DNA from: a virus
Strand: one strand, 5' to 3'
Length of the DNA: 40,716 nucleotides
Virus genome (UHGV): UHGV-0322864
Part shown: positions 261 to 25,774 of the stretch, piece by piece
How the letters are laid out: each line of letters starts with the position of its first letter
Numbering within the stretch: the stretch's first letter is position 1
Program-made: the position numbers and the translations under genes
Notes under the pieces: model-generated
What the model was told of the DNA's origin: nothing
The model's database searches: none
What the model saw: only the letters and a program-made list of their open reading frames with translations

Positions 261-308
261 ATAAATAAAAATGTCCTACCCCCTATATACATTATAGAAG
301 GCAGGACT
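261..308 (-). terminator. terminator-like hairpin plus U-tract after the 549-aa gene
   Basis: Minus-strand stem GTCCTGCC/GGTAGGAC (one mismatch) followed by AUUUUUAUUUAU. Confidence 0.4.
285..293 (-). promoter_or_regulatory. TAATGTATA motif (candidate phage middle/late promoter element)
   Basis: Exact 9-mer on the minus strand ~38 nt upstream of the ATG at 247, inside the loop of a terminator-like hairpin. Confidence 0.4.
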
Positions 309-314
309 TAGGTC

Positions 315-1964
315 TTATTGAGTGAACCAGCTAGTGTCTTCGACAGCTGATAAAGCACCATTCAGTTTAGGATTGGTTGCTGCACCACCAACTGCTTCTT
401 CTGCTTGTTCAGAGAAAACACCTAGAGGGTCGTAGAAACCACCAGAAGGGATTGCACGGTTAACCAATGCAGTAGCTCTCTTCTTATCCATACCAGAACC
501 GATGTAAGCTTCAATCGTAGCTCTCTTAGCATCAGCAACACCTTTCATTGCAGAGGTGTGACCAACGTTAGCTTGCTTACGAGCATAAGCAAGAGCAGCA
601 TCAGTAGGACGCCATCCAGATTTCAGTGCAAACTTGTTGCCAACACGAACGAAGATTGATGGGTCTTCCGCAAAGTGCCCCAAGTCTTCTTCGGTAAGAG
701 AACGAGTAGCACCGATTTCAGCCCTTGCGGAGTTCATGATAGCCTGCATGTAAGCAGAACGAGCTGTCTGATAGTCTTTATCCTTAACAGCCTTATCAGC
801 CAAATCCAAGTCTTTGTTAGACTGGTTAAACAGGCCACCTTTCTCTGCCCACTGCTTAGCAACCGTACCTTCAGCTGTATTCTGAGCAAGACGAACTTCT
901 TTCGGGTTAAAGTTAAAACTCTGAGCAGCTTGTTCAGCACGTTCAGCCTTAACCTTATCACGATAGCCAATCAACTCTTTCTGACGTTCAAAGTTCATAT
1001 TAGCTCTTTCTTCAGCAGCACGACGAGTTTCATCAGCACGCTCACGCATAGTCTGCTCTTGAATCTGTTGACGTCTATCCCATTCAGCATTCTGTCGTTC
1101 TTCACGAGCAGCATACAGCGCTTCTTTCTGAGCAGGGTCTACAGCTCTCATCTTCAGTAGAGATGGGTCTCCGTTAGCAATAGCAGCTGCGATCGAGTCT
1201 TGAGAGAAGCCTTGTTCAATCAGAGCATCACGGTTAGCTTCCAGTTGCTTCTTAGTCTCATCTTGATTAGCCATTCCCTGACCAATCTGGAAAGCTTCAA
1301 TAGGAGACTTACCTGACATAATGGAAAGACCTACACCCATCAAACCTGTGTAGAAACTAGAGTTCTGATAGAATGGTTCTTTCTGTAGCTTGTTCCAAGC
1401 TTCCGAAGGGTCTTTAGCTTTCGCAACTTGCAAGATATCGTTGTTAACACGTTCCTGATCTTTAGCACGAGTAGCGGCAGTCATTCCATCACCAGCGTCT
1501 TGTCCTTGAGCAAGAGTATTAATCACACCTTGTGCCTGTTCCACCTGAGAAGGAGTAAACTCCATAGGACCAGCTTCTAACGGTTTAGTAGGAGGTGTTA
1601 CCGGAAGAGGTTCTGATTCTGGAGGAATAGAAGAAGGAGAAAGTCCAGCAGCTTGCATGGTTTCTTGATTCTCAAACTCAGGAAGAGTTACAGCCTGTTG
1701 TGCTTGAGGTTGTACATCATTTGGGATATCAGAAGGAAGACCATTACTCTGAACAGGATTCAACATATTCTGATAATCTACTGAAGTTTGACCTACAAGA
1801 GAGGAAAGCCCAGCAGGTATAGCAGGACGTTGATACATAGAAATATCTGCTGTCTGAGTTGGTCTAGCCATATAAGGAGAGGCCGAAGCCGCTCCCGGAT
1901 TAACACCATAGAAAGTATTTCTCGGGTCACGACTTCTGACCTGAGCGTAAGTTGTCTGTTGCAT
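315..1964 (-). CDS. hypothetical virion/internal protein (549 aa)
   Basis: Long ORF in the late operon; charged coiled-coil-like middle (ERQNAEWDRRQQIQEQTMRERADETRRAAEE); no recognisable catalytic motif. Confidence 0.6.
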   Translation of the reverse strand: MQQTTYAQVRSRDPRNTFYGVNPGAASASPYMARPTQTADISMYQRPAIPAGLSSLVGQTSVDYQNMLNPVQSNGLPSDIPNDVQPQAQQAVTLPEFENQETMQAAGLSPSSIPPESEPLPVTPPTKPLEAGPMEFTPSQVEQAQGVINTLAQGQDAGDGMTAATRAKDQERVNNDILQVAKAKDPSEAWNKLQKEPFYQNSSFYTGLMGVGLSIMSGKSPIEAFQIGQGMANQDETKKQLEANRDALIEQGFSQDSIAAAIANGDPSLLKMRAVDPAQKEALYAAREERQNAEWDRRQQIQEQTMRERADETRRAAEERANMNFERQKELIGYRDKVKAERAEQAAQSFNFNPKEVRLAQNTAEGTVAKQWAEKGGLFNQSNKDLDLADKAVKDKDYQTARSAYMQAIMNSARAEIGATRSLTEEDLGHFAEDPSIFVRVGNKFALKSGWRPTDAALAYARKQANVGHTSAMKGVADAKRATIEAYIGSGMDKKRATALVNRAIPSGGFYDPLGVFSEQAEEAVGGAATNPKLNGALSAVEDTSWFTQ

Positions 1965-1977
1965 ATTTGTCTCCTAA

Positions 1978-2946
1978 TTAAGTACTAGCCAACCCACCGA
2001 TTACACCCCCAGCTAATGCACCCCAAGGTCCAAAGGAAGAGCCTGCTGCTGCACCACTCATACCCCCTCCTAAGAAGCCACCCCTACCTCCAGATGTTTT
2101 AGTAGTTGTAGTTTGTCCGAGAGCACCGTTAAGTACACCTGCTGCACCGAGTTGGTTATTGATATCTTGCCATCCCCAATTAGCTGCGTTCTGAGCATTC
2201 TGGTAGGCATTATCATATTCATTCTGTTGTTGCTGTTGTTGCTGCAATCCTGCATTCCATTGATTCATTATTTGCTGTTGAGACAAATTAGCACCCTGCT
2301 GACCTAGGTTAGAAAGGTTAGAACCAATATTAGAAAGACCTGAGAGAGCAGCTGCTTGATTCTGTCTATTACCAGAGAGGATGCTTTCAGCTTGGCTAAT
2401 AGCCGAGTTATAGGCACTGTTGGTAATATCTGTTGCTTGGCCTTGCATCTGATTCAGAGCATCACCTTGGGCAAAAGATTTAGCCATACGAGCACCTGAA
2501 CCTTGCTGACCAGCAAACTGTTGAGCTAATTGAGGAAGAGCATTACGTGCCAAGTTCTGTTGAACCTGTTCATTATTAGCGGTAATGGCTGCTTGCACAG
2601 CATCATCGTCATACAGTTGACCAGCGAGAGCACCAATCTGTTCTCCAGTAATCCCACCTTGTCCAGAGAGGCTCTGGTAGCCTTTATAGGCATTATCCAG
2701 ATAACCCAACCCTTGACCTGCTGCATCCATATATTGCTGCGAGAGAGTCCCTAAAGCACCGGATTGAGCCAAATTATTAAGGGCTTCTGTCTGGTTGTTA
2801 TTAAATCCTACGTTGTCACGATAGACATAATCCCCTGAACTAGTATTACCAATCTGCTGGTTAAGCTGGTCAATATACTGTTGAATATATTCAGGGCGAA
2901 TCATTTGGGAAGTAGTTTTACTACCCCCTCCTCCGAAAAGTCCCAT
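1978..2946 (-). CDS. Q/N/G-rich low-complexity protein with glycine-zipper C-terminus (candidate ejection protein), paralog 1
   Basis: 322-aa ORF starting MGLFGGGGSKTT; Q/N/A/G-rich throughout; C-terminal GGFLGGGMSGAAAGSSFGPWGALAGGVIGGLAST. Confidence 0.6.
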   Translation of the reverse strand: MGLFGGGGSKTTSQMIRPEYIQQYIDQLNQQIGNTSSGDYVYRDNVGFNNNQTEALNNLAQSGALGTLSQQYMDAAGQGLGYLDNAYKGYQSLSGQGGITGEQIGALAGQLYDDDAVQAAITANNEQVQQNLARNALPQLAQQFAGQQGSGARMAKSFAQGDALNQMQGQATDITNSAYNSAISQAESILSGNRQNQAAALSGLSNIGSNLSNLGQQGANLSQQQIMNQWNAGLQQQQQQQNEYDNAYQNAQNAANWGWQDINNQLGAAGVLNGALGQTTTTKTSGGRGGFLGGGMSGAAAGSSFGPWGALAGGVIGGLAST

Positions 2947-2958
2947 ATCAAATCTCCT

Positions 2959-4011
2959 TTAGTTTGCTCCAAATGCCCCTAAGACACCACCTAAGATATT
3001 ACTACCTGCTGTGGATAACCAGTTAGACTGACCTCTCTGTTGAGAAAGATTAGAACCTCCAATCATAGGTCCAGCCATTCCAGATTGCCCACCTGAGTTG
3101 TTATAGGAACTCCAAGCATTCTGAGTCTGTTGGTTAGGAGAGAAAGCACCCATACGACCTGCAATACCTAAACCAGTGATACCAGCACCTAGGAGCTGTT
3201 GTCCAGTATTGACTCCCGGAGCAGCATTCTTAATCGTGTACCCAGCCATTGGACTTACACTGTTTAATACATTAAGCTGATTGTTAAGCTGATTCCACCC
3301 ATACTGCTGAGAGCCAATAGCGTTCTGCCAATTAATATCAGCTTGAGCTTGAGCTTGTTGCTGTTGAAGATTACCAGCCATCAGCTGATTCTGAATAGCT
3401 TGTTGAGTTGCCTGAACACCTTGAGCACCAAGATTGAGATTCTGTCCAGCCAATCCTGACTGAGCGCCAAGTAAGCCTCTCTGGAAGTTTTGATCTTGTT
3501 GAAGAGCGCTGATTCCCATATTCTTGCCACTGATAGTACGAGCTAAGTTTGTATTAGCACTGTTCAGAGCAGCACCTTGAGCAGCAGCTCTACGGAGAGA
3601 GCCTGAATCAGAACCATTTCCGAGAGATACATTGGAAGCTGCCTTACTAGTCGCTTGAGCAAGAGCTGAGTTATTCAAACCTTTACTAAAGTTATTAACC
3701 CCTTCAGCCGTTACTCCACCGCCATTAACAATATTCTGATACTGTTGAGCAAGGGAGTTGAGTTGGTCCAAACCTTGCTGTGTACGAGGTGTGTACATAT
3801 CAGCCAATTGCTTTTGAGTTGTAGAAGCTGCTAAGTTATTCAGAGCACCTTGTTGGTTGCCATTAAACCCAGCCAGCTGTTGGGAGATGAATCCCGGATC
3901 GTTGTTCTGCATATTCTGAGCATTAGCAACAATCTGCTTCAGCAGGGCATCAACCTGAGAGGAAGGGGCCACTGTGGTTTTGCTAGAAGCTGATTTTCCA
4001 AATAAAGACAT
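2959..4011 (-). CDS. Q/N/G-rich low-complexity protein with glycine-zipper C-terminus, paralog 2
   Basis: 350-aa ORF starting MSLFGKSASSKTT; same composition and C-terminal glycine-rich hydrophobic tail (ILGGVLGAFGAN) as the neighbouring ORF. Confidence 0.6.
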   Translation of the reverse strand: MSLFGKSASSKTTVAPSSQVDALLKQIVANAQNMQNNDPGFISQQLAGFNGNQQGALNNLAASTTQKQLADMYTPRTQQGLDQLNSLAQQYQNIVNGGGVTAEGVNNFSKGLNNSALAQATSKAASNVSLGNGSDSGSLRRAAAQGAALNSANTNLARTISGKNMGISALQQDQNFQRGLLGAQSGLAGQNLNLGAQGVQATQQAIQNQLMAGNLQQQQAQAQADINWQNAIGSQQYGWNQLNNQLNVLNSVSPMAGYTIKNAAPGVNTGQQLLGAGITGLGIAGRMGAFSPNQQTQNAWSSYNNSGGQSGMAGPMIGGSNLSQQRGQSNWLSTAGSNILGGVLGAFGAN

Positions 4012-4030
4012 AAGTCCTCCTTAAAGATTA

Positions 4031-4813
4031 TTACTTTACACCAATGCTAGCTAAACGTCTGAGCACTGCTTGTGTTTGTGGACTGTACTGAGAACCTGCT
4101 GCATGTGGTGCACTTGCCCTCTGAACTGTTTGAGAAGTAGGAGGTTTACCGGCAAGCATAGCAGCTACCCCTAATACTGCATTACCAAAGTTCTGTTGAG
4201 GCTTCTGGTTTTTACCTTCCTGCACTTCATCAGAGTAAAACTCTACTGGATTTCCGCCTAAAGCACCTGTCTTAGAAGCAGCAATCTCTGCCTGAGTTGG
4301 CGCTTGTGCGGCCTTCTCTCTATCTAACAAGTCAGGACTAAACTGATTGACTGGTTGAACAGCTTGCAAAGCTCCAACAGGGTTCGCAATCTGAGAAGCT
4401 GCATCACCATAGAAAGGAAGAAAGTGTTTATTGTTCATGGAGTCAAGAGCTTGTGGAGTAAACCCCTTTTTACCAGCGAACATTTGCTTAGCACCACCGA
4501 TACCCTCTGAGTAACCAACCATTGCTTTCTTGACATCACCATTAAAAGCCTTTAAGTTATCTCTAATATAACGAGCACCCATATCAATATTCTTTGCTGG
4601 GTCAAGTCTGTCTTCTAGTTTGTAACCGTAGTCTTTAGCCAATCCTTTACTGATCTGCATTAAACCTACAGGACCAGTTCCAGAAGCCGCTGTAGGACGA
4701 CCACTAGACTCTCTTTGGATTACAGCATGAATCAAAGCAGCAGGAATCCTATACTTCTTTGAAGCCTGTTGAACCATTGGGTCTAGTTCTTCAATACCCA
4801 TTTTAATTGCCAT
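4031..4813 (-). CDS. soluble lytic transglycosylase (SLT) domain protein, likely virion-associated
   Basis: N-terminal motif AALIHAVIQRESSGRPTAASGTGPVGLMQISKGLAKDYGY matches the SLT catalytic-Glu signature (ExxxQRESS...GLMQ); sits among structural genes. Confidence 0.8.
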   Translation of the reverse strand: MAIKMGIEELDPMVQQASKKYRIPAALIHAVIQRESSGRPTAASGTGPVGLMQISKGLAKDYGYKLEDRLDPAKNIDMGARYIRDNLKAFNGDVKKAMVGYSEGIGGAKQMFAGKKGFTPQALDSMNNKHFLPFYGDAASQIANPVGALQAVQPVNQFSPDLLDREKAAQAPTQAEIAASKTGALGGNPVEFYSDEVQEGKNQKPQQNFGNAVLGVAAMLAGKPPTSQTVQRASAPHAAGSQYSPQTQAVLRRLASIGVK

Positions 4814-4825
4814 AATATCTCCTTG

Positions 4826-5857
4826 TTATAGTCCAGCAAAAACTTTAGCTGCATTAATTACAGGCATAGATAAATTGACCACAGTATCAGATCCCAAGTC
4901 GTAATTCTGATCCCATTGGAAAAGATATCTCCCATAACCAGTCCCTACACTAGAACCAGCCATTGTGTGAGATCTCATCTGTTGATATCTCCAACCACTT
5001 CCTCGACCTTTTATAGCCCCTATACCAGAGGACAGAGGTATCATAGGGTAAGCCATTCCTGTGTTACCTCCACCCGAACCTATAAAGTTATCAATAGTAA
5101 AAGGTGTTCTATTTGTTGAGAATACACATTGTGTAGTTCCCGGTGAGTAGATATTCAAACCACCATTGTGCTCAGGAACTCCAGCACCATTGCAAAATAC
5201 TGCAACCCTAGCAAATACGGAACCACCTTCGTTGGTGTTTCCATTAACGTATGGACGGTTTTGATAAACCCGTATAACCCTGTCACCAGAAGTATAAGAT
5301 AACCCTAAACCTCCATCAGACCAGTTAGCAAAAACTACAGCATTGGGCATATAGAATCCACCTATATCTGGAATCTGTAGAGCATTATTTATTGTTCCTT
5401 GCCAAGCCCAAATACACTGACCAACAACCCCAGCATCTGATATAGAGAAATAATCAGCTGTATTAGAAAAAGTTATGCCGTAGTTCCTATCAGCTCTAGG
5501 CCAGATTTGATAAACATTAAAACCACAATCAAAAAGAGGATTACTTCCGGGGTTCTGATTTAGGTTGACACGGAAAGATGTGTTATTTTCTACATAAATA
5601 CTACTTACACAATAAACATCTGGAACGAGGTTTGGTGGAACCTCCCATTGCCAACAAAGAGATCCTGTTGGGACAATAACAATCTGACCAGAACCATCCC
5701 ACCCACTAATAGGGAAGGATCTTCCACCACCGTTGAAGTTGAAACTACCGCTTATGGTGTTCTTTATCTGAGGGAAGGTGCTCCCACTATCAATAAAAAG
5801 AGGAGCAGGGGAAGCTGGCCCCGGCCCTACTGGTTGTGCCCAAATTCCATATGCCAT
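4826..5857 (-). CDS. hypothetical structural protein (possible receptor-binding tip protein)
   Basis: 343-aa G/S/N-rich ORF, predicted beta-rich, translationally coupled to the upstream fibre-like gene. Confidence 0.5.
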   Translation of the reverse strand: MAYGIWAQPVGPGPASPAPLFIDSGSTFPQIKNTISGSFNFNGGGRSFPISGWDGSGQIVIVPTGSLCWQWEVPPNLVPDVYCVSSIYVENNTSFRVNLNQNPGSNPLFDCGFNVYQIWPRADRNYGITFSNTADYFSISDAGVVGQCIWAWQGTINNALQIPDIGGFYMPNAVVFANWSDGGLGLSYTSGDRVIRVYQNRPYVNGNTNEGGSVFARVAVFCNGAGVPEHNGGLNIYSPGTTQCVFSTNRTPFTIDNFIGSGGGNTGMAYPMIPLSSGIGAIKGRGSGWRYQQMRSHTMAGSSVGTGYGRYLFQWDQNYDLGSDTVVNLSMPVINAAKVFAGL

Positions 5858-5858
5858 A

Positions 5859-6830
5859 TTACCAACTCCCTATTCTGATTCTCAAAGCACCGCTTCCATC
5901 ATAGAAATCAATCCTGTTTCCATTCATCCAGAGTTGTGCCCCACCTGTACCGCCCATAACAAAGTCACCACCAACAGTGAGCCTCCAGTTAGAACCCCAC
6001 ATAGAACCAGCAGTGATTTTATCCGCTGACAAGTTCTGAATCTGGGCGTTGGAGATGGATACGTTATCAATCTGTGCCCATTGAATTCTAGCGTTAGCAA
6101 TCTGAGCTGTTGTGATATTGACGTTCTTTATATCAGCGAATTCCATCCTAGCTCGCCCACCTTCAAACACGAAGGGAGTGTTACCAGAGTTGCCATCACC
6201 AACAATAAATTTGTTAGCTGTTACTTGGAATTGACTGTTTGTTCCGTTGTTAGTTAATTTGACCCCAGCATATCTTCCGTTGACTGTTGAGTTGACTCCC
6301 CATGTAGCTTCATATTCAGAAAGCTTCATATACTGAGAGAGGCTTCCATTAATATTTTGAATCTCTGTCTGAACTAAAGCAATCTCTTGACCTTGGTCGT
6401 TAACAATCCCTTCTACCGTTTGAATCTTAGTTGTATTGCCTTCAATACTTGTTTTAAAGCCAGATACAGTACTTTCTAATTTTACAGGAGGTTGAACAGA
6501 ATTATCCCAAATATCTTCAGTGGAGAGATTCCCCATCTGTGTTTGGATATCGGCAATAGCTGTCTCTATCTCTGTAGTAATTCTATTCTCAAGCTCATCG
6601 AATTGTAAGTTCATCGCATGAAGAGCTTTGATACGAACATCAATCTCGTCGTGAATCTCGTCAATAGCTTGGAACATTTGGTTAGTAGCTGTACTGACTT
6701 TTTGTAATTCATCATACACGGCTACGTTATATGTTTCTGTGTCCTGTACATTATTGAGAAACCCAACGTTGTACGGGAGTGTGGTGTTGTTACGACCTGT
6801 ATTCTTTCTAAATCCTCCAGCACCCATTCC
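5859..6830 (-). CDS. tail fibre-like protein
   Basis: ORF track gives 5859..6875; the first Met preceded by an SD (AAGGAGG, 9 nt spacing) is MGAGGFRKNTGR near 6830; coiled-coil segment then repetitive NITTAQIANARIQWAQIDNVSISNAQIQNLSADKI typical of fibre shafts. Confidence 0.55.
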   Translation of the reverse strand, partial: GMGAGGFRKNTGRNNTTLPYNVGFLNNVQDTETYNVAVYDELQKVSTATNQMFQAIDEIHDEIDVRIKALHAMNLQFDELENRITTEIETAIADIQTQMGNLSTEDIWDNSVQPPVKLESTVSGFKTSIEGNTTKIQTVEGIVNDQGQEIALVQTEIQNINGSLSQYMKLSEYEATWGVNSTVNGRYAGVKLTNNGTNSQFQVTANKFIVGDGNSGNTPFVFEGGRARMEFADIKNVNITTAQIANARIQWAQIDNVSISNAQIQNLSADKITAGSMWGSNWRLTVGGDFVMGGTGGAQLWMNGNRIDFYDGSGALRIRIGSW

Positions 6831-6855
6831 ATAATCCCTCCTTGCTAGATAATCT

Positions 6856-6885
6856 AAAAACAATAAAAGGGGCACGAAGCCCCTT
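6856..6885 (-). terminator. intrinsic terminator after the 1005-aa gene
   Basis: Minus-strand GGGGC-UUCGU-GCCCC followed by UUUUAUUGUUUUU. Confidence 0.6.
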
Positions 6886-6889
6886 GTTA

Positions 6890-9907: not shown

Positions 9908-9916
9908 AATTCCTCC

Positions 9917-10720: not shown

Positions 10721-10732
10721 AAGGCACCTCCA

Positions 10733-11224: not shown

Positions 11225-11253
11225 TTCTAACCTCCTTTTGTAGTCCCTTTAAA

Positions 11254-11472: not shown

Positions 11473-11564
11473 TTGAGTGTCTCCTATATATTAACCTCTT
11501 GGGATATATTAGTTTCATTACTTACTAAGGGTACTTACTACTAAAGCCCCCGAAGGGGCTTATC

Positions 11565-13673: not shown

Positions 13674-13685
13674 TAAATCCTCCTA

Positions 13686-13708: not shown

Positions 13709-13713
13709 GTTAA

Positions 13714-17001: not shown

Positions 17002-17010
17002 ATTATCTCC

Positions 17011-17763
17011 TTATACACGAGAAGTACGAATACCATAAATATCAGGCAAGCTGCTCTGAAGTCGAGTCATGTTATTCGGAATTGCGATAGGTGAACCTGA
17101 GTACTCTTGTTTCTTATGCTGCTCTACTATTTCATCAAGGATAGCTTTTCCTAATGCAGACCATTTCTGAACTCCATTATCATCTTGAACAAATAAGCAA
17201 GCGTGACGTAGAGTGAAATACAGAAGAAGCTCTGGTGCAATAGTGAGGATAGCACTGGTATCTGTATCTTCATGGAATTCCGGTGGGTCCGCATAATAGC
17301 TAAGAATCACTGAGTTTTCTGCTGGAATCAAAGGGCTTCCATCATCAGGATAAACAGGAGTATCTGCTTCAATACTAGGATAGAAAATGAAACGACTCCC
17401 GAAACGAGCAAAGTTAACAGGCTGGTTGTTCCAGTGGGATGGGTTAATTGTTCCATGCTGTCTACGATAGCTAATCTCTTCCGGAGATGTTACTTGGAAG
17501 ATTGTACCATCTTTGGCTCTCATCATCCATTGAGCTTCTAAGTAATCAGGAGGAATATAAGCTACTCCATCTTTAATATCTAAATAGACTTCTTTTTCCA
17601 GAGGAGGAATACGTAAGTTACGATAGATCTCTTTCTCTGCAAAGTTAATAAAGTTTGGAATTTGATTAACAAATTCATCATCGTCTCGATCGGCCCACAA
17701 GGCAACAGCTTTCTTAAGCCAGCCATACGTGTTAATCGGGTTTTGCACTTCAGGCATCGCCAT
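17011..17763 (-). CDS. virion structural protein (head-tail adaptor/connector candidate)
   Basis: 250-aa ORF between the capsid and tail-fibre genes; SD AAGGAGG; coupled to the downstream fibre gene. Confidence 0.5.
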   Translation of the reverse strand: MAMPEVQNPINTYGWLKKAVALWADRDDDEFVNQIPNFINFAEKEIYRNLRIPPLEKEVYLDIKDGVAYIPPDYLEAQWMMRAKDGTIFQVTSPEEISYRRQHGTINPSHWNNQPVNFARFGSRFIFYPSIEADTPVYPDDGSPLIPAENSVILSYYADPPEFHEDTDTSAILTIAPELLLYFTLRHACLFVQDDNGVQKWSALGKAILDEIVEQHKKQEYSGSPIAIPNNMTRLQSSLPDIYGIRTSRV

Positions 17764-17796
17764 AGGTTGTCCTCCTTGTTATATGTAGACAAAGAA

Positions 17797-17805
17797 TATA
17801 CATTA
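17797..17805 (-). promoter_or_regulatory. TAATGTATA motif (candidate phage middle/late promoter element)
   Basis: Exact 9-mer on the minus strand ~33 nt upstream of the ATG at 17763, just downstream of a terminator. Confidence 0.4.
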
Positions 17806-17826
17806 CACACTAGCTTGTATAGGTCT

Positions 17827-17856
17827 TAAAACAAGAAAAGCCACCCGAAGGCGGCT
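17827..17856 (-). terminator. intrinsic terminator after the capsid/Ig-like genes
   Basis: Minus-strand AGCCGCC-UUCG-GGUGGCU (one G.U pair) followed by UUUUCUUGUUUU. Confidence 0.65.
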
Positions 17857-17892
17857 TTATTCTTATGCAATCTCTTTACTAGTTACTGTACC

Positions 17893-18849: not shown

Positions 18850-18932
18850 TTCTGCTGTAGCTGTAAACTGCTGAGTAGCCCCCGTCGGAAGGCTTGCAAC
18901 CGACGAAGGACTAACAGTTACGGAATCTACTG

Positions 18933-19994
18933 TTACGCCGCCGCTACCTTTCCCGCAGCAGTGAACAGAACGCCGGAAGCATACGGGTTGCGGTGACGCA
19001 GACCAACTTCCATTTCAATCATCCACTTCTCGTAAGAACCGTCTTTAGCCAGTTCAGTACGTTTCGGAGCACGCAGAACCATCTGGGTCCAGTCAGCGCT
19101 ACGGAAGAAGTAAACTGCATCGGTAGGCATCCAACGGTTAACGATGATTTTGTAGCTCTGGCCCAGCGGGTCAGTGATGCTGTTAACTTCGTAGATGAAC
19201 TGCTTGGTGTTCTCAAAGATACGCTTACGTGAACCCTGAGTATTTTCTTGCAGACCAGCGAAGATCTTAGCATGAGCCGGGTTAATCATGATGATGTCTG
19301 CTTCAGAACCAGCGGTGTACAGTTGCAGGGTCATATCAAAGATATCAGCTTCATCAAAACCAATGTTAGTGGTCGGGTTAGAAGCATTCTGTGCAACTTT
19401 AACAGTTACTGCACCAGTATCCGGGTCAGCAGGACCATTCTTGGTCTTGTCAACAACGCCACCAGCCAGACCACCGTGAGCACACAGGAACTGGAATGCA
19501 CCAGTCTTACGAGCTGCATGGGTGTCATTCAGACCAGCAACAGCAGGATCAGCTGCGGAGTTAGTCAGATACTGGTCAGCCAGAACATCGGTACGAGCCT
19601 GACCGGACAGAAGGATTTTCTCGAGGTCACGCTTGATCTCTTTACCTTTCTTCTCCAGCTGATACATCAGTTCACGACCACGACCGTAGTTAGCGGTGGT
19701 GTTAGCAGTATCAGAAACACGAACAACCTTACGCAGAATCTGAGTAACGTTAGATTTGATAACAGTCGGTTTCATTTCACCGTCTTCAGCACGAGAGCCT
19801 TCGACGTGTGCGTTATTACCGTCAACGCTTGCCAGTGCATCGGTCTGCCAGCTAAAGATAGTCTGGTTGATAGACTCTTTACCGGTCATAGATACGAACG
19901 GGGTATCCTGAGGGGACAGAACAGAAATCCAGTTAGCAAAAGAAAGTTTTTTACCATTCTGGTCATACGATACAAATAAAGTTGGATTAGCCAT
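18933..19994 (-). CDS. major capsid protein
   Basis: 353-aa ORF directly after the scaffold gene; strong SD (TAGGAGC); ends FTAAGKVAAA with a G_GGA_AAG slippery heptamer. Confidence 0.75.
   Translation of the reverse strand: MANPTLFVSYDQNGKKLSFANWISVLSPQDTPFVSMTGKESINQTIFSWQTDALASVDGNNAHVEGSRAEDGEMKPTVIKSNVTQILRKVVRVSDTANTTANYGRGRELMYQLEKKGKEIKRDLEKILLSGQARTDVLADQYLTNSAADPAVAGLNDTHAARKTGAFQFLCAHGGLAGGVVDKTKNGPADPDTGAVTVKVAQNASNPTTNIGFDEADIFDMTLQLYTAGSEADIIMINPAHAKIFAGLQENTQGSRKRIFENTKQFIYEVNSITDPLGQSYKIIVNRWMPTDAVYFFRSADWTQMVLRAPKRTELAKDGSYEKWMIEMEVGLRHRNPYASGVLFTAAGKVAAA
18948..18954 (-). other. candidate -1 ribosomal slippery heptamer G_GGA_AAG near the capsid gene 3' end
   Basis: Capsid frame reads GCG GGA AAG GTA GCG GCG GCG TAA; X_XXY_YYZ pattern; the -1 frame is open from here into the Ig-like ORF; hairpin TAACAGT/ACTGTTA 12 nt downstream. 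Confidence 0.6.
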
Positions 19995-20034
19995 GTTATG
20001 TTAGCTCCTATACTATTAATAATTAATTTGTCGA

Positions 20035-21111
20035 TTAATCTACGAGGAATTTGAATGCGTCTTCGTGACTAACGCGACCCTCTGCGAATGCCTTGGCAAC
20101 CTTAGCGTTGTCGGGCTTATTGGAAGTACGAGACTTTGCAGCATCAGACTTCACAACCTTGCGTGGAGCACCGGGACGTTTAATCTTAGCCATCACCTGT
20201 TGCTTACCTTTATCAAATTGGTATGCTTTATGGAGAGCTAGGAAAATAGACGGACGGTTTTCCTTCAATACTTCTTCTTCAGTAGCACCTAAGTCAATTG
20301 CGTATTGCATTAAGTTTTGATATAAGTTTTCATCCCAATTTGGAATCTCACGTTTCAGAATATTAACACATTCAATGCTCTTGGCTTGGAAAGCTTCCTG
20401 CTCTTTAGCTGCTGCTTCCTGCTTAATACGGACCTGAGCCTGTTCAAGCTGTTGACGGCGAGCTGTGTACTTCTCTAGGAAACGTTTGTTTTCAACATAT
20501 GCTTGAGGATCTTCTACTGCAAGCTTGTCCCAATCAAAACCGTTATAATCTTCAATTACTCGGTCTGCTTCTAAAGACGCCAGTTCTAATACATCCTTCA
20601 AACCTACTACACGTTCCTCAAATGCTTCCATATGACGCTGAAGAGTAGTTTCTCGTTCTGTCATATCAGCACCAGTAAGATAGCCATTAGAAAGTTCTTC
20701 AATAGTCATCTCACGTCCATCAGGAAGGGTGATAACGGTTTCGTAGTCTACATCAAAGACCTCACCTTCACCGTCAACAGAATCATCTTCATATTCTGCA
20801 TCGCTTGAATCTTCTTCCTCTTGTTCTTCTGCTTCAGAGGATTCATCTTCATCTTCTTCGACTTCGCCTTCCTCTTCACGATCTTCCCAACCATCTTCAT
20901 CTTCGAACTTAAGCTCATCGCTTTCACCGAGAAGGTCGGTATCAAAGTCGAAATCGTCACCGTCTTTTTCCGGGAACTCATCGTCAATGTCCACTTCTGG
21001 TTCTTGTTCAGATTCTAATCGACCGAGTTCTTCTTTGAAAGAACCTTTCAGGTCATCCAGTTGGAGGAAAGATTTAAAATCGTTCGGGTCAATATAATTA
21101 TCTTGTGGCAT
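20035..21111 (-). CDS. scaffolding protein
   Basis: Between portal and capsid genes; extremely acidic D/E tract (EDEDGWEDREEEGEVEEDEDESSEAEEQEEEDSSDAEYEDD), helical C-terminal half. Confidence 0.6.
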   Translation of the reverse strand: MPQDNYIDPNDFKSFLQLDDLKGSFKEELGRLESEQEPEVDIDDEFPEKDGDDFDFDTDLLGESDELKFEDEDGWEDREEEGEVEEDEDESSEAEEQEEEDSSDAEYEDDSVDGEGEVFDVDYETVITLPDGREMTIEELSNGYLTGADMTERETTLQRHMEAFEERVVGLKDVLELASLEADRVIEDYNGFDWDKLAVEDPQAYVENKRFLEKYTARRQQLEQAQVRIKQEAAAKEQEAFQAKSIECVNILKREIPNWDENLYQNLMQYAIDLGATEEEVLKENRPSIFLALHKAYQFDKGKQQVMAKIKRPGAPRKVVKSDAAKSRTSNKPDNAKVAKAFAEGRVSHEDAFKFLVD

Positions 21112-21347
21112 TATGAAACATCTCCTGCACTATTGATAGCAGCTTTTATGACCTCTTTTAAGCTACCAACCATTTTATACTTTTGATAACAATCTTCGCG
21201 TTTCTTATTCTCATGAGGTTCTGTTTGAACTATCTCTGTCATGAGTCTTTCTTTCAATGCCTCTAATGCTGCGTCAAGACTGCCGTTAAGATTGAGAGCC
21301 GCCAAAGCGGCGGCGTGCTCTTTATTGAATTGATGCCTAATGTTCAT
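21111..21347 (-). CDS. hypothetical small protein
   Basis: 78-aa ORF in the portal-scaffold gap, overlapping stop/start with the scaffold gene. Confidence 0.4.
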   Translation of the reverse strand: MNIRHQFNKEHAAALAALNLNGSLDAALEALKERLMTEIVQTEPHENKKREDCYQKYKMVGSLKEVIKAAINSAGDVS

Positions 21348-21356
21348 TCGACGTCC

Positions 21357-23600
21357 TTACTTTTTACTTCCAAGACGTTTGCCTGGAATCCGTGAATCTT
21401 TGAGAGAAGCTTGTTGCTCTTTCTTAGTTACATTAGCTTCTTTCTTTTGGAGTTCCAAAGTTTTGTCCTGAACACGAGCTTGCTGAACAATCTTCTCTTG
21501 GTCTACCTGATGAGACATAACCATCTGCAATTCTTTCAGTACAGATTCATACTGACGGACCTGCTGTTGCATAAGAGCTAACTTGTGCTTAGCTTGTTCC
21601 AGAGTAGCATTGTTATCTTCTTTACGGTTTTCCAGAGTCATTGCATCTGCTGCATTTTCTTGCTTGAATTGCAACTCTTCCTGACGCAGACTTAATTCAT
21701 CCGCAGCTTTCTGCTGTTCGAATGTAGTACGTTCACGTTGGTCGAATGCATCAGCAATCATCTTCTGAGAAGAAGCCTGTACGTTCTCAACCTGAGCTTT
21801 AGTCATCTCGAGCTGAAGGATTTCCATCGGAGAAGGTTCTGGAGGCTGATACTGTTCCAGAGGCAGAAGGTATTTATGTGTATCTTTAATACCCATCAAC
21901 TCAAAGATCTGTGCAGTCATGTAACGGTCTTGCTCCAAACCAAAGAGAGGTGCTAACTGTGCATCTGCTGCAATCAGCTGTTTCAAGCTAATCAGTTTCT
22001 GTGCACGTTCTGCTTTCTCATTAGGAGAGATAGCTACAACAACTTGAAGATTGTGACGAGCTGGTAGTTGTTTTGGATTTACCTGAATCATACCACGAGG
22101 GGTTTGTACCTCGATAGGAACTTCACCATTTTCTCTGATAAGATTGTAAATACCACGCATCAATTCAACCATACCATTATGAGCAATGTTACGACATACC
22201 ATACGGAGACGGTTCTGTGCAGCATTCATCATCAAGCCTACGGTTGCATAAGCATTATCGTTCTTAAACACATCAGGGTTGATACCCATGCCTAGTTTAG
22301 TTACACCCGTACGTGTCTCTTTAAGCTCCTCAGACATGCCTAGGAGGCCATCAATACCTTGAGGTAGGTTATGGTATGGGAACAGGTCAATAGCGTCCTG
22401 ACGTTCCATTTCAACCACTCCACCGGGACGGTTATCAAGCAGAGAGCGACGATCGTATGCACCAACAAGAGCTTTGTATCGACCATAGTTAGCATTGTTG
22501 ACGTTATCAATGTAACCACGAACTAGCGCGGTACGTAAATCTTGAATATCTTTCGTAATGTCATAGACCGATTGACCATAGAAGGAACCCGGAATCGGAT
22601 ACGGGCAGAAGGTTACAAACGGAATGTGAGTTACTTCTTCAGTGTGAAGGATATGCTCACCAGCTTGAATAACCTGATAGAGTTTAGACTCTTTATTCTT
22701 ATCTAGAACACCAGTACGAATGTAGTGCTCATAAACCCAAACCATAGAAGCAATATCTTCGGTATCTGTACCAATGTCAGCATCAATATCCTGACGCCAG
22801 TCAGTACGAGACCAAGCAACTGTAGATTGAGTGGTATCCATCGTGTCTGTCCAGTCGTTGAATGCTTCAATCTCATCTTTAGGGAAGCCCATAGCAACCA
22901 GATCTTCTTTAGAACGACGTACACGATGACAGAAATATTGTGCATCTGCAAAAGAGGTAGCATGTTCATCAACAAAGATTTGCTCTGAAGGAACATATTC
23001 AACTTTCACACGTTTAACAGTTTGTTCGTAAGTAACTTTAACATCGACTGTACCGTCTTCATTTTCTTCAGTGAAGACTTCCAGATTCTTGAGTCCACCA
23101 GCTTCTAATCCCTGAACATATGCAGCCAATGCTTCCGGTGGTACACCTTCAGCTTCTTCAGTTTGAGTAGAAGTTTGTTCATCCCAATAATACTTGATAA
23201 AAGAGTTACGAGTAACCAGACATTCTTGTGCAGCAGAAGAGATAATATTGTATCCCGGATTATCACGCAGAAGAATTTGGTTGACTAATTTAGTTGCTAC
23301 ATCAGCAGCATCAGAATCCTGTTGGTTGTCAGCTACGAAAGTAACTGCTTCATCACCAGAACAGAATACGTTAATAATATCTTGCAATGTACCGTTAACA
23401 GATTCCCAAACAGTACGATCTACCCAACTAGAGCTGCCAGCAGTTACTGGTGCAGGTAAGTTACCATAGAAATATTCCCAAGCTTCACGAGCATAGCCCT
23501 TAACAGCCATGTCAACGTAACCTTGAGCGTAATTAAAACGACGTTGAAGGTCAACACGTAACTCGTCCAACACCTCTTCACTATATTTTTGCTTAGCCAT
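21357..23600 (-). CDS. portal protein with long C-terminal coiled-coil extension
   Basis: 747 aa immediately downstream of TerL; size and position typical of a portal; C-terminal ~200 aa strongly helical/charged. Confidence 0.75.
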   Translation of the reverse strand: MAKQKYSEEVLDELRVDLQRRFNYAQGYVDMAVKGYAREAWEYFYGNLPAPVTAGSSSWVDRTVWESVNGTLQDIINVFCSGDEAVTFVADNQQDSDAADVATKLVNQILLRDNPGYNIISSAAQECLVTRNSFIKYYWDEQTSTQTEEAEGVPPEALAAYVQGLEAGGLKNLEVFTEENEDGTVDVKVTYEQTVKRVKVEYVPSEQIFVDEHATSFADAQYFCHRVRRSKEDLVAMGFPKDEIEAFNDWTDTMDTTQSTVAWSRTDWRQDIDADIGTDTEDIASMVWVYEHYIRTGVLDKNKESKLYQVIQAGEHILHTEEVTHIPFVTFCPYPIPGSFYGQSVYDITKDIQDLRTALVRGYIDNVNNANYGRYKALVGAYDRRSLLDNRPGGVVEMERQDAIDLFPYHNLPQGIDGLLGMSEELKETRTGVTKLGMGINPDVFKNDNAYATVGLMMNAAQNRLRMVCRNIAHNGMVELMRGIYNLIRENGEVPIEVQTPRGMIQVNPKQLPARHNLQVVVAISPNEKAERAQKLISLKQLIAADAQLAPLFGLEQDRYMTAQIFELMGIKDTHKYLLPLEQYQPPEPSPMEILQLEMTKAQVENVQASSQKMIADAFDQRERTTFEQQKAADELSLRQEELQFKQENAADAMTLENRKEDNNATLEQAKHKLALMQQQVRQYESVLKELQMVMSHQVDQEKIVQQARVQDKTLELQKKEANVTKKEQQASLKDSRIPGKRLGSKK

Positions 23601-23626
23601 CTATTCTCTCCCTCGGTTGATAGCTT

Positions 23627-23655
23627 AAATAAAAGAAGGGAGGACAAACCTCCCC
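23627..23655 (-). terminator. terminator-like hairpin between TerL and portal
   Basis: Minus-strand GGGGAGG-UUUGU-CCUCCC followed by UUCUUUUAUUU. Confidence 0.45.
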
Positions 23656-23660
23656 TTACT

Positions 23661-25202
23661 TTAGTAGCTCTGATTCCATCTGCTTACGTTTGCCTCATAC
23701 AAAGAAGCGCTTCCGAAGCTAACATCATGCTTAGAGCGACCACGATGTGTAACAGAGCACGCTGAATAGCGCATTGCATCCATTAAGTCATCATGTTCTT
23801 TAATAATCTTACCAACCTTACGGTGATATCTAGCTTTCTCTTCGAATAGCTTAGCGTTAGCGGCTGTGTTAAAGACTTTAAAGCGTCCACTCATCATTCT
23901 TTCTCGGATATCTGTGATTCCCGGTTCTACAAAGAAGTTCTTTTTACCATCCATTCCAATTTTGTTGTAGAAGGTCTCACTCTGTACGTTAACTCCTGCA
24001 TTCTTATAGAATTGAGCAACAGATGAACCACTACCTTTCTCAATATTGTCCGCATCGTGCGGTAGGATGACAGGAATCCACTGACCACGACCATTAATAG
24101 CTGGAGCATGATACACTGGAGTAAAGCCACCTTCTTTATATGAGTCGTAAACATAGATAGTATCCGTGTTTGCGTCATAAGCTGTCCAAACAGCAGCAGT
24201 TGGGTGATCAATACCAATATCAATTGCACAGACACGTTTCCACGTATCAGGGATTTCGAATGGTTCACATTTAATTGTGTCATCCGATACATCATAAATC
24301 AAACCACTTCCTAACAATGGCATACCTTTCGAACGCATCTCTAACTGCCACGCTGGAATACCTTCAGTCATATCTTTTATATCTTGGTCAGTGATGTGTC
24401 CACCTAGGTCTGCATGAGCATCCCACCAAGAAGCATTCTGGAAATATAGAGAACCTGTGTTCTCATCTCCTTCACCTTTCATAAATTTATCTACCAGTTC
24501 AGTTAAACCGTTCTCTGGTGTAGCTGTAATTGTAACTAGACCTTTAGTTGTGAGTGTACGTGTGACGCACTGTGCGAATATAGCCATAGACTCATATGGA
24601 TCTTCTTCGTCTAACCAAATGTAGTCAACTGTTGCACCCATCAATGTGTGTTCACCCTGTTGGGTTGAACGAAATTCTAATGTACTTAAACCGTCAAACT
24701 CTCCTCTTTCATTTTGATGTTTGATTTGTACGATTTGAAGTTTGTTACCATCTCGTTCTATCGTATCAATGACGATAGCATCACGAGGAATGACACCTGT
24801 CCCTAATAAGTTTGTATCCTTTCCGATAGGTGTACCAAACAACTCCTTTTGCAATACCTTCCTTGTGGAATCCCCTGTAATACCAACTGCCCATGCTAAG
24901 ATAGGTCTTTTAAATTTATATCCTGTCCACCAAGTTGGGTAGCGACCTGTGACATGACAAGCAAACTCGTATGCCTCGCTATAAGATTTACCAACACGGT
25001 TCGCTGCACACAAGAACCTAAAGCGATGCTTCAATCCTGCTGCATAAAATTTCTTTTGGAAGTCATACGCCTTGAAAGACAAAATCCTATTATACTTCCT
25101 CCATTGGTCACGCTCTTTCAACATATTCAATAGTGCTTTCTTCTCGTCTACACTAAGGTTGTTACCAGTTAGAGCTTCATAAATTTGTTTATCTAATGAC
25201 AT
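23661..25202 (-). CDS. terminase large subunit
   Basis: Walker A LCAANRVGKS, Walker B VDYIWLDEE, RNase-H-like nuclease motifs CAIDIGIDHPTAAVW and DDLMDAMRY; 513 aa. Confidence 0.9.
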   Translation of the reverse strand: MSLDKQIYEALTGNNLSVDEKKALLNMLKERDQWRKYNRILSFKAYDFQKKFYAAGLKHRFRFLCAANRVGKSYSEAYEFACHVTGRYPTWWTGYKFKRPILAWAVGITGDSTRKVLQKELFGTPIGKDTNLLGTGVIPRDAIVIDTIERDGNKLQIVQIKHQNERGEFDGLSTLEFRSTQQGEHTLMGATVDYIWLDEEDPYESMAIFAQCVTRTLTTKGLVTITATPENGLTELVDKFMKGEGDENTGSLYFQNASWWDAHADLGGHITDQDIKDMTEGIPAWQLEMRSKGMPLLGSGLIYDVSDDTIKCEPFEIPDTWKRVCAIDIGIDHPTAAVWTAYDANTDTIYVYDSYKEGGFTPVYHAPAINGRGQWIPVILPHDADNIEKGSGSSVAQFYKNAGVNVQSETFYNKIGMDGKKNFFVEPGITDIRERMMSGRFKVFNTAANAKLFEEKARYHRKVGKIIKEHDDLMDAMRYSACSVTHRGRSKHDVSFGSASLYEANVSRWNQSY

Positions 25203-25271
25203 ACTTCCTCCAGTTTAAAAATAGAAAAGGGAAAGTCCCTTCGTCAAAGAACCTCCCCTTCTTTCCTTTAC

Positions 25272-25745
25272 TTAACTCTCGTCCGCTTCCTCCCCCTTTT
25301 CAGCGTCCTCAGAGTTGTCTTCTTCTGGAGGCATAACATCGATACCAAGTGCTCCAGTCAAGAAGTCCTTGATTTGTGCATTCAATGATTCTTCGTTGAT
25401 TACATTCTCTTCCTCAATCTTAACTTCAACAGAGGCCGCCTTAGGATATACCAGATCTGCAACTTTTGATGCAGCCTTGAATCTAAGATCAGGTGGAATA
25501 TTAGGATCTTCGTAAATTTGAATTAACACTTCATCAGGAGACAAATGACTTGCAGCAACACGGTCCAACATTAATTGTGTCAGTTTACCTCTACTACCTC
25601 TGGGTCGTCCGAATTTATTTCCCTTTTGAAACTTCCCATTGCTTGGGTTCATACCACGGCCTTCAAGTTCTTCCGTTACTCCGGGTAATCTTCCTGTAAT
25701 CTCAGCTACCTGTGCAGGCGTGAGTTCTCCGTTTTCTCCAAACAT
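25272..25745 (-). CDS. putative terminase small subunit
   Basis: 157-aa ORF immediately upstream of TerL; basic N-terminal motif KGNKFGRPRGSRGK and acidic C-terminus. Confidence 0.5.
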   Translation of the reverse strand: MFGENGELTPAQVAEITGRLPGVTEELEGRGMNPSNGKFQKGNKFGRPRGSRGKLTQLMLDRVAASHLSPDEVLIQIYEDPNIPPDLRFKAASKVADLVYPKAASVEVKIEEENVINEESLNAQIKDFLTGALGIDVMPPEEDNSEDAEKGEEADES

Positions 25746-25774
25746 TTTATACTCCTTCTACATTATCAACAACA

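What the first reader, a model, noticed from the sequence alone, without database searches (positions are those of the whole stretch)
285..25765. TAATGTATA motif upstream of late genes, resembling a phage-sigma-dependent middle/late promoter
Seen in sequence: exact TAATGTATA occurs twice on the minus strand (~285-293 and ~17797-17805), both in intergenic DNA and both 33-38 nt upstream of a late-gene ATG. About 0.3 occurrences of a given 9-mer are expected by chance in this window. One-mismatch variants directly abut the SD of other late genes (TAATATATAGGAG before 11472; TAATGTAGAAGGAG before 25745). Established knowledge, from memory and unchecked: phiEco32-like phages (Kuravirus) use TAATGTATA as a middle/late promoter element read by a phage-encoded sigma factor. 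Inference: this phage may use the same strategy, with the sigma gene outside the window.
Basis: partly seen in the sequence, partly recalled or inferred. Interest (0 to 1): 0.6.

Follow-up and report, generated by a model that had tools for sequence, protein, structure and literature searches.

The report
Known Kuravirus late promoters P26/P13/P6
The repeated TAATGTATA motif marks three already characterised late promoters (P26, P13, P6) of a phiEco32-like coliphage, read by the phage's own sigma factor gp36, so the finding is real and correctly interpreted but ordinary for this phage group.

Summary
The window is a phiEco32-like phage (Kuravirus): 93-97% DNA identity to SU10, NJ01, SGF2 and phiEco32, and colinear with phiEco32. 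Exact TAATGTATA lies at 286-294(-) and 17797-17805(-), and TAATGTAGA at 25757-25765(-). These are the orthologues of phiEco32 promoters P26, P13 and P6. Those three are the late members of six promoters mapped experimentally for RNA polymerase carrying phage sigma gp36 (element tAATGTAtA, start 6-8 bp downstream). The same sequences are already tabulated for SU10 and five other relatives.

Count alone is weak: 2 exact copies against 0.49 expected, and 10 of 100 shuffles reach 2. Position is decisive. All three sites sit on the sense strand in the 2.9% of the late block that is non-coding, and they are the top three PWM hits in the window.

The fourth site, TAATATATAGGAG before the holin gene, is not conserved and lacks the contacted G at -11, so I reject it.

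All close relatives carry gp36 (99.5-100% identical in those listed).

Side observations, not tested experimentally:
- P26 lies inside a conserved terminator-like hairpin.
- P13 and P26 share an AAGACCTA box at -37..-30.
- A weak gp36-like candidate promoter precedes the holin gene.

Novelty: already known.

The parts
286..294 (-). P26 promoter element TAATGTATA (AATGTA = -14..-9). It drives gene 26, whose first 247 nt lie at the window's left edge.
   Evidence: Exact match. Identical to the SU10 late promoter 'ttctataatgtatatagggggtagg' and to phiEco32 26015. P26 was transcribed in vitro by the gp36 holoenzyme and stimulated 4-fold by gp79. Top PWM hit in the window.
278..280 (-). Predicted transcription start of P26 (G at 279). 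This is an inference.
   Evidence: AATGTA is centred at -11.5 and starts lie 6-8 bp downstream of the element. Not measured for this genome.
309..316 (-). AAGACCTA box at -37..-30 of P26, overlapping the gp25 stop codon.
   Evidence: Same 8-mer at the same distance (N15) as in P13, with an unrelated spacer. Conserved in all seven genomes compared at this site, although the gp25 stop codon moves relative to it. gp36 CTD contacts -37 and -34 on P68.
263..307 (-). 15-bp hairpin (273-307) plus AUUUUUAUUU (263-272), terminator-like. Bases -13..-9 of P26 form its loop.
   Evidence: -22.8 kcal/mol, z = -5.3, 0 of 200 shuffles fold as well; the 4E8/ECBP2/E20-1 version differs at 5 pairs and every one still pairs.
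17797..17805 (-). P13 promoter element TAATGTATA. It drives gene 13 (17011-17763) and downstream tail genes. Predicted start G at 17790.
   Evidence: Exact match. Identical to the SU10 late promoter 'gtgtgtaatgtatattctttgtc' and to phiEco32 9102. Conserved in the ten genomes compared at this site. Second PWM hit.
17820..17827 (-). AAGACCTA box at -37..-30 of P13.
   Evidence: E20-1 has AAGACCCT at the same distance.
17837..17858 (-). Intrinsic terminator hairpin after gene 12, directly upstream of P13.
   Evidence: and (-16.8 kcal/mol, z = -5.25). The SU10 paper lists the equivalent terminator.
25757..25765 (-). P6 promoter element TAATGTAGA. Predicted start near 25750, only 5 nt before the gene 6 ATG at 25745.
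   Evidence: Supplementary Table S3 of PMC8948821 lists TAATGTAgA as P6. SU10 lists 'gttgataatgtagaaggagtataaaatg'. Conserved in 6 genomes while the 11 nt upstream change. Third PWM hit.
25781..25796 (-). Terminator hairpin after gene 5, directly upstream of P6.
   Evidence: (-11.1 kcal/mol, z = -3.07), followed by UUUUU.
11485..11493 (-). Judged not to be a promoter.
   Evidence: A replaces G at -11, and G-11 is bound by gp36 E79/H80. Not conserved: ES17 has TAATACATA, 4E8 and ECBP2 have gaatacaca, E20-1 has gaaaacgaa. Not among the six mapped promoters.
11514..11542 (-). Candidate extra gp36-type promoter ('P16'). AGTAGTAA (11535-11542) at -37..-30, N15, AATGAA (11514-11519) at -14..-9. Predicted start near 11505. 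A hairpin at 11544-11561 lies just upstream. Weak evidence.
   Evidence: Both blocks are conserved in 11 genomes while the spacer and leader diverge. The box resembles the P68 box GGTAGTAG at the same spacing. A-14, A-13, T-12, G-11, a purine at -37 and A-34 are all retained. No sigma70-like match in the gap. Against: the -10 region scores -0.4 bits, rank 1038.

Best explanation
The sites at 286-294(-), 17797-17805(-) and 25757-25765(-) are the late promoters P26, P13 and P6 of a phiEco32-like phage (Kuravirus).

Established for phiEco32:
- Late in infection, E. coli core RNA polymerase carries the phage sigma factor gp36.
- The gp36 N-terminal domain reads A-14, A-13, T-12 and G-11 of AATGTA and opens the DNA from -11.
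- The gp36 C-terminal domain touches the -37 and -34 region.
- The small phage protein gp79 displaces host sigma70 region 4 and stabilises gp36.
- Transcription starts 6-8 bp downstream of the element.

Inferred for this window:
- Starts lie near 279, 17790 and 25750.
- The transcripts cover gene 26, genes 13 onward (tail, lysis and ejection genes), and genes 6/7 onward (packaging and head genes).
- Both gp36 and gp79 are encoded outside the window.

Shown here: the sequence, the orthology and the conservation. Taken from the literature on phiEco32: promoter activity and mechanism. Inferred: that they operate identically in this particular genome.
For: Identity of the phage:
- 93-97% DNA identity to SU10, NJ01, SGF2 and phiEco32.
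- The window is colinear with phiEco32 26307->1 and then 77554->63058.

Orthology of the sites:
- The three sites are base-for-base identical to the three late promoters tabulated for SU10.
- They sit before the orthologues of phiEco32 genes 26, 13 and 6.

Experimental basis in phiEco32:
- Six gp36-dependent promoters were mapped upstream of genes 6, 13, 26, 40, 58 and 68, with element tAATGTAtA and starts 6-8 bp downstream.
- Table S3 gives P6 = TAATGTAgA and P13 = P26 = TAATGTATA, for six phages.
- P26 is transcribed in vitro by the gp36 holoenzyme and activated 4-fold by gp79. Cryo-EM contacts are at -14, -13, -12, -11, -37 and -34.

Statistics in this window:
- Expected 0.010 sense-strand copies in the late gaps against 2 observed.
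- The three sites are the top three PWM hits.

Conservation:
- AATGTA is kept at all three positions in Kuravirus and Suseptimavirus genomes while the flanks change.

The sigma factor:
- gp36 is found in 101 phage records, all of the same host range as this group (E. coli, Shigella and one Salmonella phage). It is 99.5-100% identical in the listed close relatives SGF2, SU10, NJ01 and phiEc_1.
- All ten DNA-contacting residues are invariant in sigma factors down to 81% identity.
- P13 and P26 have a purine at -37 and A at -34, as P68 does.
Against: - No transcript data exist for this genome.
- The sigma and gp79 genes are not in the window, so their presence is inferred from relatives.
- The count of exact matches alone is not significant (10 of 100 shuffles).
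- P6 lacks the -37/-34 bases.
- The predicted P6 start lies downstream of the gene 6 Shine-Dalgarno sequence, so its role for gene 6 itself is unclear.
- The primary paper (Pavlova 2012, PMC3275717) could not be read. Its content is taken from three later papers that cite it.
Confidence: 0.93

Rival explanations
1. Chance occurrences of an A+T-rich 9-mer with no function.
For: 2 matches against 0.49 expected, with 10 of 100 shuffles reaching 2. One-mismatch matches are not enriched, 11 against 13.9.
Against: Both copies lie on the sense strand of the 2.9% of the late block that is non-coding, where 0.010 are expected. They are orthologous to mapped promoters, conserved across genera, and the top PWM hits.
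Confidence: 0.02
2. They are host sigma70 promoters. P26 contains a perfect TATAAT hexamer (cTATAATgt), so they may not be phage-sigma promoters, or may be both.
For: TATAAT overlaps the element at 291-296. The SU10 authors suggest dual use of some promoters of this type.
Against: No acceptable -35 hexamer: the consensus scan of 1-20000 reports no sigma70-like site at P26 or P13. In phiEco32 these genes are late class, their promoters are gp36-dependent, and gp79 shuts off sigma70 transcription.
Confidence: 0.05
3. The 286-294 copy is also (not instead) the loop of an intrinsic terminator that ends the gene 13-25 transcript. Gene 26 would then be expressed only from P26, whose start lies in the 3' arm and therefore escapes termination.
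For: A 15-bp hairpin plus a U-run on the sense strand. -22.8 kcal/mol, z = -5.3. Five substitutions in the 4E8/ECBP2/E20-1 version all keep pairing. G.U pairs work only on this strand. P13 and P6 are likewise immediately preceded by terminator hairpins.
Against: No double-sided compensatory change, and only two sequence versions are available. The 4E8 annotation lists predicted terminators but none at this position, and the SU10 terminator list has none here. The SU7 annotation of this region marks terminators only after gene 26. The inverted repeat could instead be a protein-binding or DNA-level feature.
Confidence: 0.5
4. The holin gap holds a fourth late promoter. Two versions: (a) the reader's TAATATATA at 11485-11493, or (b) the conserved AGTAGTAA-N15-AATGAA at 11514-11542.
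For: For (b): both blocks are conserved in 11 genomes while the spacer and leader diverge. The box resembles the P68 -35 box, and all contacted bases are retained. A hairpin lies just upstream, as at P13 and P6. A sister clade carries AATGAA at the P6 and P13 positions. 7-11 has a late promoter one gene upstream of its gene 18 homologue.
Against: For (a): A at -11 and no conservation. For (b): T-10 is invariant in the six mapped promoters. The -10 region scores -0.4 bits, rank 1038. The site is not among the six mapped promoters. The loose pattern also hits coding DNA at the portal/gp9 junction.
Confidence: 0.2

Closest known systems
phi32_gp36-dependent late promoters P6, P13 and P26 of phage phiEco32 (Pavlova et al. 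2012, as cited in PMC8948821, PMC4331800 and PMC12276001)
   Same: Same element (TAATGTATA twice, TAATGTAGA once). Same genes downstream, same distance to the start codon, and the same phage genus. The sequence is identical to phiEco32 from the AAGACCTA box (P26, P13) or the terminator hairpin (P6) through to the ATG, except for one spacer base in P13.
   Different: Nothing substantive. This genome is a different isolate (about 94% identity to phiEco32 in these regions), and its sigma gene is not in the window.
Predicted late promoters of SU10, NJ01, ECBP2, KBNP1711 and 172-1 (SU10 paper Table S2; PMC8948821 Table S3)
   Same: The three SU10 late promoter sequences listed in Table S2 are reproduced exactly in the window.
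   Different: None. The window adds one more genome to a published table.
SaPh711_gp47-dependent late promoters of Salmonella phage 7-11 (bipartite GTAAtg-N16-aCTA)
   Same: A phage-encoded sigma70-family factor reads a few strong promoters placed at similar genome positions in front of late operons.
   Different: Different consensus. The sigma is only about 15% identical and was probably acquired independently. There is no gp79 and no host shut-off.
T4 sigma appropriation (AsiA/MotA) and T4 late promoters read by gp55 (the gp55 part is from my own knowledge)
   Same: The phage redirects host core polymerase. gp79 resembles AsiA in removing sigma70 region 4 and co-activating phage promoters. 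As at T4 late promoters, a short -10-like element carries most of the specificity.
   Different: gp36 is a complete two-domain sigma that also touches the -35 region. The proteins are unrelated.

Membership tests
phiEco32-type gp36-dependent middle/late promoters | Element tAATGTAtA with invariant AATGTA | tested here: met
   286-294 and 17797-17805 match exactly. 25757-25765 is TAATGTAGA, the published P6 form. 11485-11493 fails because the core reads AATATA.
phiEco32-type gp36-dependent middle/late promoters | Location on the sense strand, in the gap directly upstream of the orthologues of phiEco32 genes 6, 13 and 26 | tested here: met
   Colinearity map, upstream alignments and SU10 Table S2.
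phiEco32-type gp36-dependent middle/late promoters | Bases contacted by gp36: A-14, A-13, T-12 and G-11, plus a purine at -37 and A at -34 | tested here: met
   All -10 contacts are present in the three sites. -37A and -34A are present in P13 and P26 but not in P6 (-37C, -34G).
phiEco32-type gp36-dependent middle/late promoters | Genome encodes the sigma factor gp36 and the co-factor gp79 | not testable with these tools
   Neither gene is in the window (tblastn), and by synteny they lie outside it. gp36 was found in 101 phage records, all of this group's host range, at 99.5-100% identity in the listed close relatives. The contact residues are invariant.
phiEco32-type gp36-dependent middle/late promoters | Transcripts start 6-8 bp downstream of the element, appear at middle or late times, and depend on gp36 | not testable with these tools
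   This needs RNA 5'-end mapping or in vitro transcription. It has been shown for the identical P26 core sequence of phiEco32.
Kuravirus (phiEco32-like phages) | Nucleotide similarity and gene order of the structural and early regions | tested here: met
   91 records cover at least 80% of an 8-kb query, and 69 of the 127 matching records fall in the 95-99% identity band. The window is colinear with phiEco32 across 40.7 kb.
sigma70-type host promoter | TTGACA-like and TATAAT-like hexamers 16-18 bp apart | tested here: not met
   No such site at P26, P13 or the holin gap. The P6 region was not scanned.

The most novel reading that the evidence does not exclude
The late gp36 promoters may be more than a single -10-like element. 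Four readings remain open.
- P13 and P26 share a second conserved box (AAGACCTA at -37..-30). This is exactly where the gp36 C-terminal domain touches DNA on P68, but the sequence differs from the GGTAGTAG box of the middle promoter P68. The box could therefore be what sets late timing apart from middle timing.
- Bases -13..-9 of P26 sit in the loop of a conserved terminator hairpin, which would insulate gene 26 from upstream transcription.
- An unlisted gp36-like promoter with an AATGAA variant and a P68-type box may drive the lysis cassette.
- Published descriptions up to 2022 call these promoters single-element. I found no mention of these features in the papers I could read.
Probability: 0.3. 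Interest if true: 0.4.

Novelty: already known. Interest (0 to 1): 0.15.

Why it matters
The main result does not change knowledge. It confirms that a motif-based read of raw sequence can recover the regulatory logic of a phage and correctly predict an unseen sigma factor. It also allows the window's late operons to be annotated with promoters and terminators.

The side observations would matter modestly to people working on the gp36/gp79 system, which was recently solved by cryo-EM. They offer a testable sequence basis for the unexplained difference between middle and late gp36 promoters. They also provide a compact promoter-inside-terminator module of possible use in synthetic circuits.

Tried and rejected
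- Count-based significance of the 9-mer and of its one-mismatch neighbours: not significant. Replaced by position-aware statistics and a PWM.
- Search for gp36 and gp79 in the window: nothing found.
- Primary papers (Pavlova 2012 PMC3275717, Savalia 2008 PMC2587145): not held. I relied on later papers and their supplements.
- Holin-proximal TAATATATA as a promoter: rejected.
- Sigma70 promoter in the holin gap: none found.
- The conserved ATG inside the AATGAA block as the start of an upstream ORF: it reads out of frame into the holin gene with no Shine-Dalgarno sequence. Dropped.
- Known RNA families in the window: none.
- Sister-clade contigs were used to test whether P26 and the holin-gap candidate are older than Kuravirus. 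Those phages have no gap at either place. Their sigma gene was not reached, so the AATGAA idea stays indirect.
- Literature search for AAGACCTA, and for Kuravirus start-site mapping beyond the 7-11 paper: nothing relevant.
- The loose pattern RGNAGTNN-N14-16-AATGNA also hits the portal/gp9 junction, where the ATG is a start codon. I treated that hit as chance.
Full report
**What the window is.** An 8-kb piece of the window (17000-25000) matches 127 phage records. 91 of them cover at least 80% of the query, mostly at 95-99% identity. They include SGF2, SU10, NJ01, 172-1 and Paul, which are phiEco32-like coliphages. The other end of the window behaves the same way.

A blastn map against phiEco32 (NC_010324) shows that window 1-27251 equals phiEco32 26307->1 in reverse orientation. 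Window 27059-27789 equals phiEco32 77554->76859, and the window then continues through the early genes to about phiEco32 63058. The 193-bp overlap (27059-27251) shows that the window runs across the joined genome ends. The minus-strand genes from 1 to about 26.7 kb are therefore phiEco32 genes 26 to 1, the late structural and lysis genes. The plus-strand genes beyond 27.4 kb are early genes.

**The observation.** Exact TAATGTATA occurs at 286-294(-) and 17797-17805(-). Reading the sequence shows that 38 and 33 nt separate the motif from the ATGs at 247 and 17763. The variants TAATATATA (11485-11493) and TAATGTAGA (25757-25765) are also present.

Count statistics are unimpressive. The expectation is 0.49 copies, and 10 of 100 shuffles reach two. 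One-mismatch hits number 11 against 13.9 expected.

Position changes the picture. The late block has only 775 non-coding bases (2.9%). The expected number of sense-strand TAATGTATA in those gaps is 0.010 against 2 observed, and for the AATGTA core 0.42 against 3. A PWM built from the six phiEco32 promoters puts 283-296, 17794-17807 and 25754-25767 first, second and third among 81,406 positions. These are the only high scorers in late-block gaps.

**What the sites are.** Three papers that cite the primary study state the following. Six promoters recognised by the holoenzyme containing phage sigma gp36 were mapped experimentally upstream of phiEco32 genes 6, 13, 26 (late) and 40, 58, 68 (middle). 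They share the single element tAATGTAtA, and transcription starts 6-8 bp downstream.

Supplementary Table S3 of PMC8948821 gives P6 = TAATGTAgA and P13 = P26 = TAATGTATA, and tabulates the same promoters in NJ01, ECBP2, KBNP1711, SU10 and 172-1. The SU10 paper prints its three late promoters, and all three strings are reproduced exactly in the window. Alignment of the regions upstream of genes 6, 13 and 26 confirms orthology. It also shows that AATGTA is invariant in window, phiEco32, ES17, 4E8, E20-1 and ECBP2 while nearby bases vary. Further genomes agree.

**Mechanism (from the literature, applied by homology).** The 2025 cryo-EM study shows the following.
- The gp36 N-terminal domain hydrogen-bonds A-14, A-13, the partner of T-12, and G-11, and stacks on the fork junction. 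The bubble runs from -11 to +2.
- The C-terminal domain contacts -37G and the partner of -34A on P68.
- gp79 displaces sigma70 region 4 and stabilises the gp36 C-terminal domain. It stimulates P26 4-fold and P68 3-fold in vitro.

The window's P26 core is identical to that of phiEco32. With AATGTA at -14..-9, I infer starts at G279, G17790 and A25750.

**The sigma gene.** tblastn with gp36 and gp79 finds nothing in the window. By synteny, gp36 lies about 8 kb and gp79 about 26 kb beyond the window's left edge. gp36 homologues occur in 101 phage records, all from phages of E. coli, Shigella or (once) Salmonella. It is 99.5-100% identical in the listed close relatives SGF2, SU10, NJ01 and phiEc_1. 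It is reported as part of the group's core proteome. All ten DNA-contacting residues (E79, H80, Y83, R84, W90, S91, S94, N95, Y186, R187) are invariant in sigma factors down to 81% identity. This fits the conserved motif.

**The rejected site.** TAATATATAGGAG before the holin gene has A at the position of the contacted G-11. It is not among the six mapped promoters. It also drifts in relatives: TAATACATA in ES17, gaatacaca in 4E8 and ECBP2, gaaaacgaa in E20-1.

**Additional features (unproven).**
- **Shared upstream box.** P13 and P26 share AAGACCTA at -37..-30. It is separated from AATGTA by 15 nt, and the two spacers match at only 3 of 15 positions. My estimate for an 8-mer shared in register between two 45-nt upstream regions is about 1e-3. 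The box keeps its distance from AATGTA even where the gp25 stop codon moves. P68 has a different box, GGTAGTAG, at the same position. All promoters except P6 have a purine at -37 and A at -34.
- **P26 inside a hairpin.** P26 lies in a 15-bp hairpin (273-307) followed by AUUUUUAUUU. Its energy is -22.8 kcal/mol, z = -5.3. Five substitutions in the 4E8/ECBP2/E20-1 version all preserve pairing. The loop is -13..-9, and the inferred start lies in the 3' arm. Upstream transcripts could therefore terminate there, while P26 transcripts would not form the hairpin.
- **Hairpins at the other promoters.** Terminator-like hairpins also directly precede P13 and P6.
- **Holin-gap candidate.** The gap contains a conserved bipartite block, AG(T/G)AGT(A/G)A-N15-AATGAAACTA, at 11514-11542, also just after a hairpin. 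It is conserved in 11 genomes while the spacer and leader diverge. It keeps all the contacted bases, and its box resembles that of P68. However, T-10 is replaced, and its -10 region scores poorly (rank 1038). I give it about 20%.
- **Sister clade.** Three metagenomic contigs have 53-68% protein identity to the window. They carry AATGAA at the positions equivalent to P6 and P13. They have no gaps equivalent to P26 or the holin site.

**Verdict.** The feature is already described in the literature for this phage group, so novelty is nil and interest is low. The side observations are cheap to test and slightly extend the published single-element description.

Noticed in passing
window 263-307 (-): The P26 -10 element sits in the loop of a conserved 15-bp hairpin followed by a U-run (-22.8 kcal/mol, z = -5.3), a terminator-like structure nested with a promoter. 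No terminator is listed or annotated at this position for SU10, 4E8 or SU7.
   Followed up: partly
window 309-316 (-) and 17820-17827 (-): P13 and P26 share AAGACCTA at -37..-30 with an unrelated 15-nt spacer. The box is conserved across Kuravirus and Suseptimavirus. AAGACCTA occurs 6 times in the window against 1.5 expected, but the other four copies lie in coding DNA with no AATGTA downstream.
   Followed up: partly
window 11514-11561 (-): A hairpin followed by the conserved block AGTAGTAA-N15-AATGAAACTAATATATC lies between the tail-fibre gene 15 and the holin gene. It may be an unlisted gp36-type promoter with a P68-like -35 box, but its -10 score is poor.
   Followed up: partly
window 25745-25765 (-): The inferred P6 start (about 25750) lies downstream of the gene 6 Shine-Dalgarno sequence (GGAG at 25752-25755). 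P6 transcripts would then carry only a 5-nt leader for gene 6, so P6 may mainly serve the terminase gene and the genes downstream of it.
   Followed up: no
window 27059-27251, with 27198-27206 (-): This 193-bp stretch matches both ends of phiEco32, so it appears to be the terminal repeat and the window spans the joined genome ends. Inside it the window has TAATGTATT where phiEco32, ES17 and NJ01 have TAATGAATA and ECBP2 has no such motif. A GGGA lies at -37..-34.
   Followed up: partly
window 27760-27787, 29723-29751, 30025-30053 (+): Three sigma70-type promoters, each with a perfect TTGACA and 11 of 12 consensus matches. They lie at the head of the early genes and in the gene-poor stretch 29.3-30.9 kb. 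They resemble the early promoters listed for SU10.
   Followed up: no
window 36837-37811 (+): No tRNA gene is found anywhere in the window. Where phiEco32 has tRNA-Arg, the window carries about 1 kb of non-homologous DNA. It encodes an HNH endonuclease (36967-37506, Pfam HNH_3, E = 1.8e-12).
   Followed up: partly
window 11461-11472 (-): The holin gene starts ATG AAA ATG ATG (MKMM). This resembles the dual-start motif of lambda S (the comparison is from memory).
   Followed up: no
window 11570-15626 and 17870-18473: The tail-fibre genes 14 and 15 are much more diverged from phiEco32 (67-78% identity or not alignable) than the rest of the late block (about 94%). The Ig-like protein gp12 is 318 aa here against 170 aa in phiEco32.
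   Followed up: no
window 34072-34080 (+): GAATGTATA lies on the sense strand inside an early ORF and is also present in phiEco32 (68920, minus strand). A at -37 and A at -34 are present. Coding constraint cannot be separated from promoter function.
   Followed up: no
L001:36682-36712 (+) (phiEco32); 4E8 35958-35988; ECBP2 35989-36019; L030:17687-17717 (-) (EK010): Outside the window. A conserved GGTAGTAGATA-N11-AATGTATATAT lies in the gene 40/41 gap. It is divergent from P40 and points antisense to the middle genes. It has the same box and spacing as P68 but is not among the six listed promoters.
   Followed up: partly
L013, L014, L015 (IMG/VR contigs of 82-90 kb), about 2771 and 9961 in L013: This is a sister clade with 53-68% protein identity to the window. 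It carries AATGAA instead of AATGTA at the positions equivalent to P6 and P13, with conserved flanks (AATGAATATAAACTAGAC). That suggests a shifted sigma specificity. Its sigma gene was not retrieved.
   Followed up: partly
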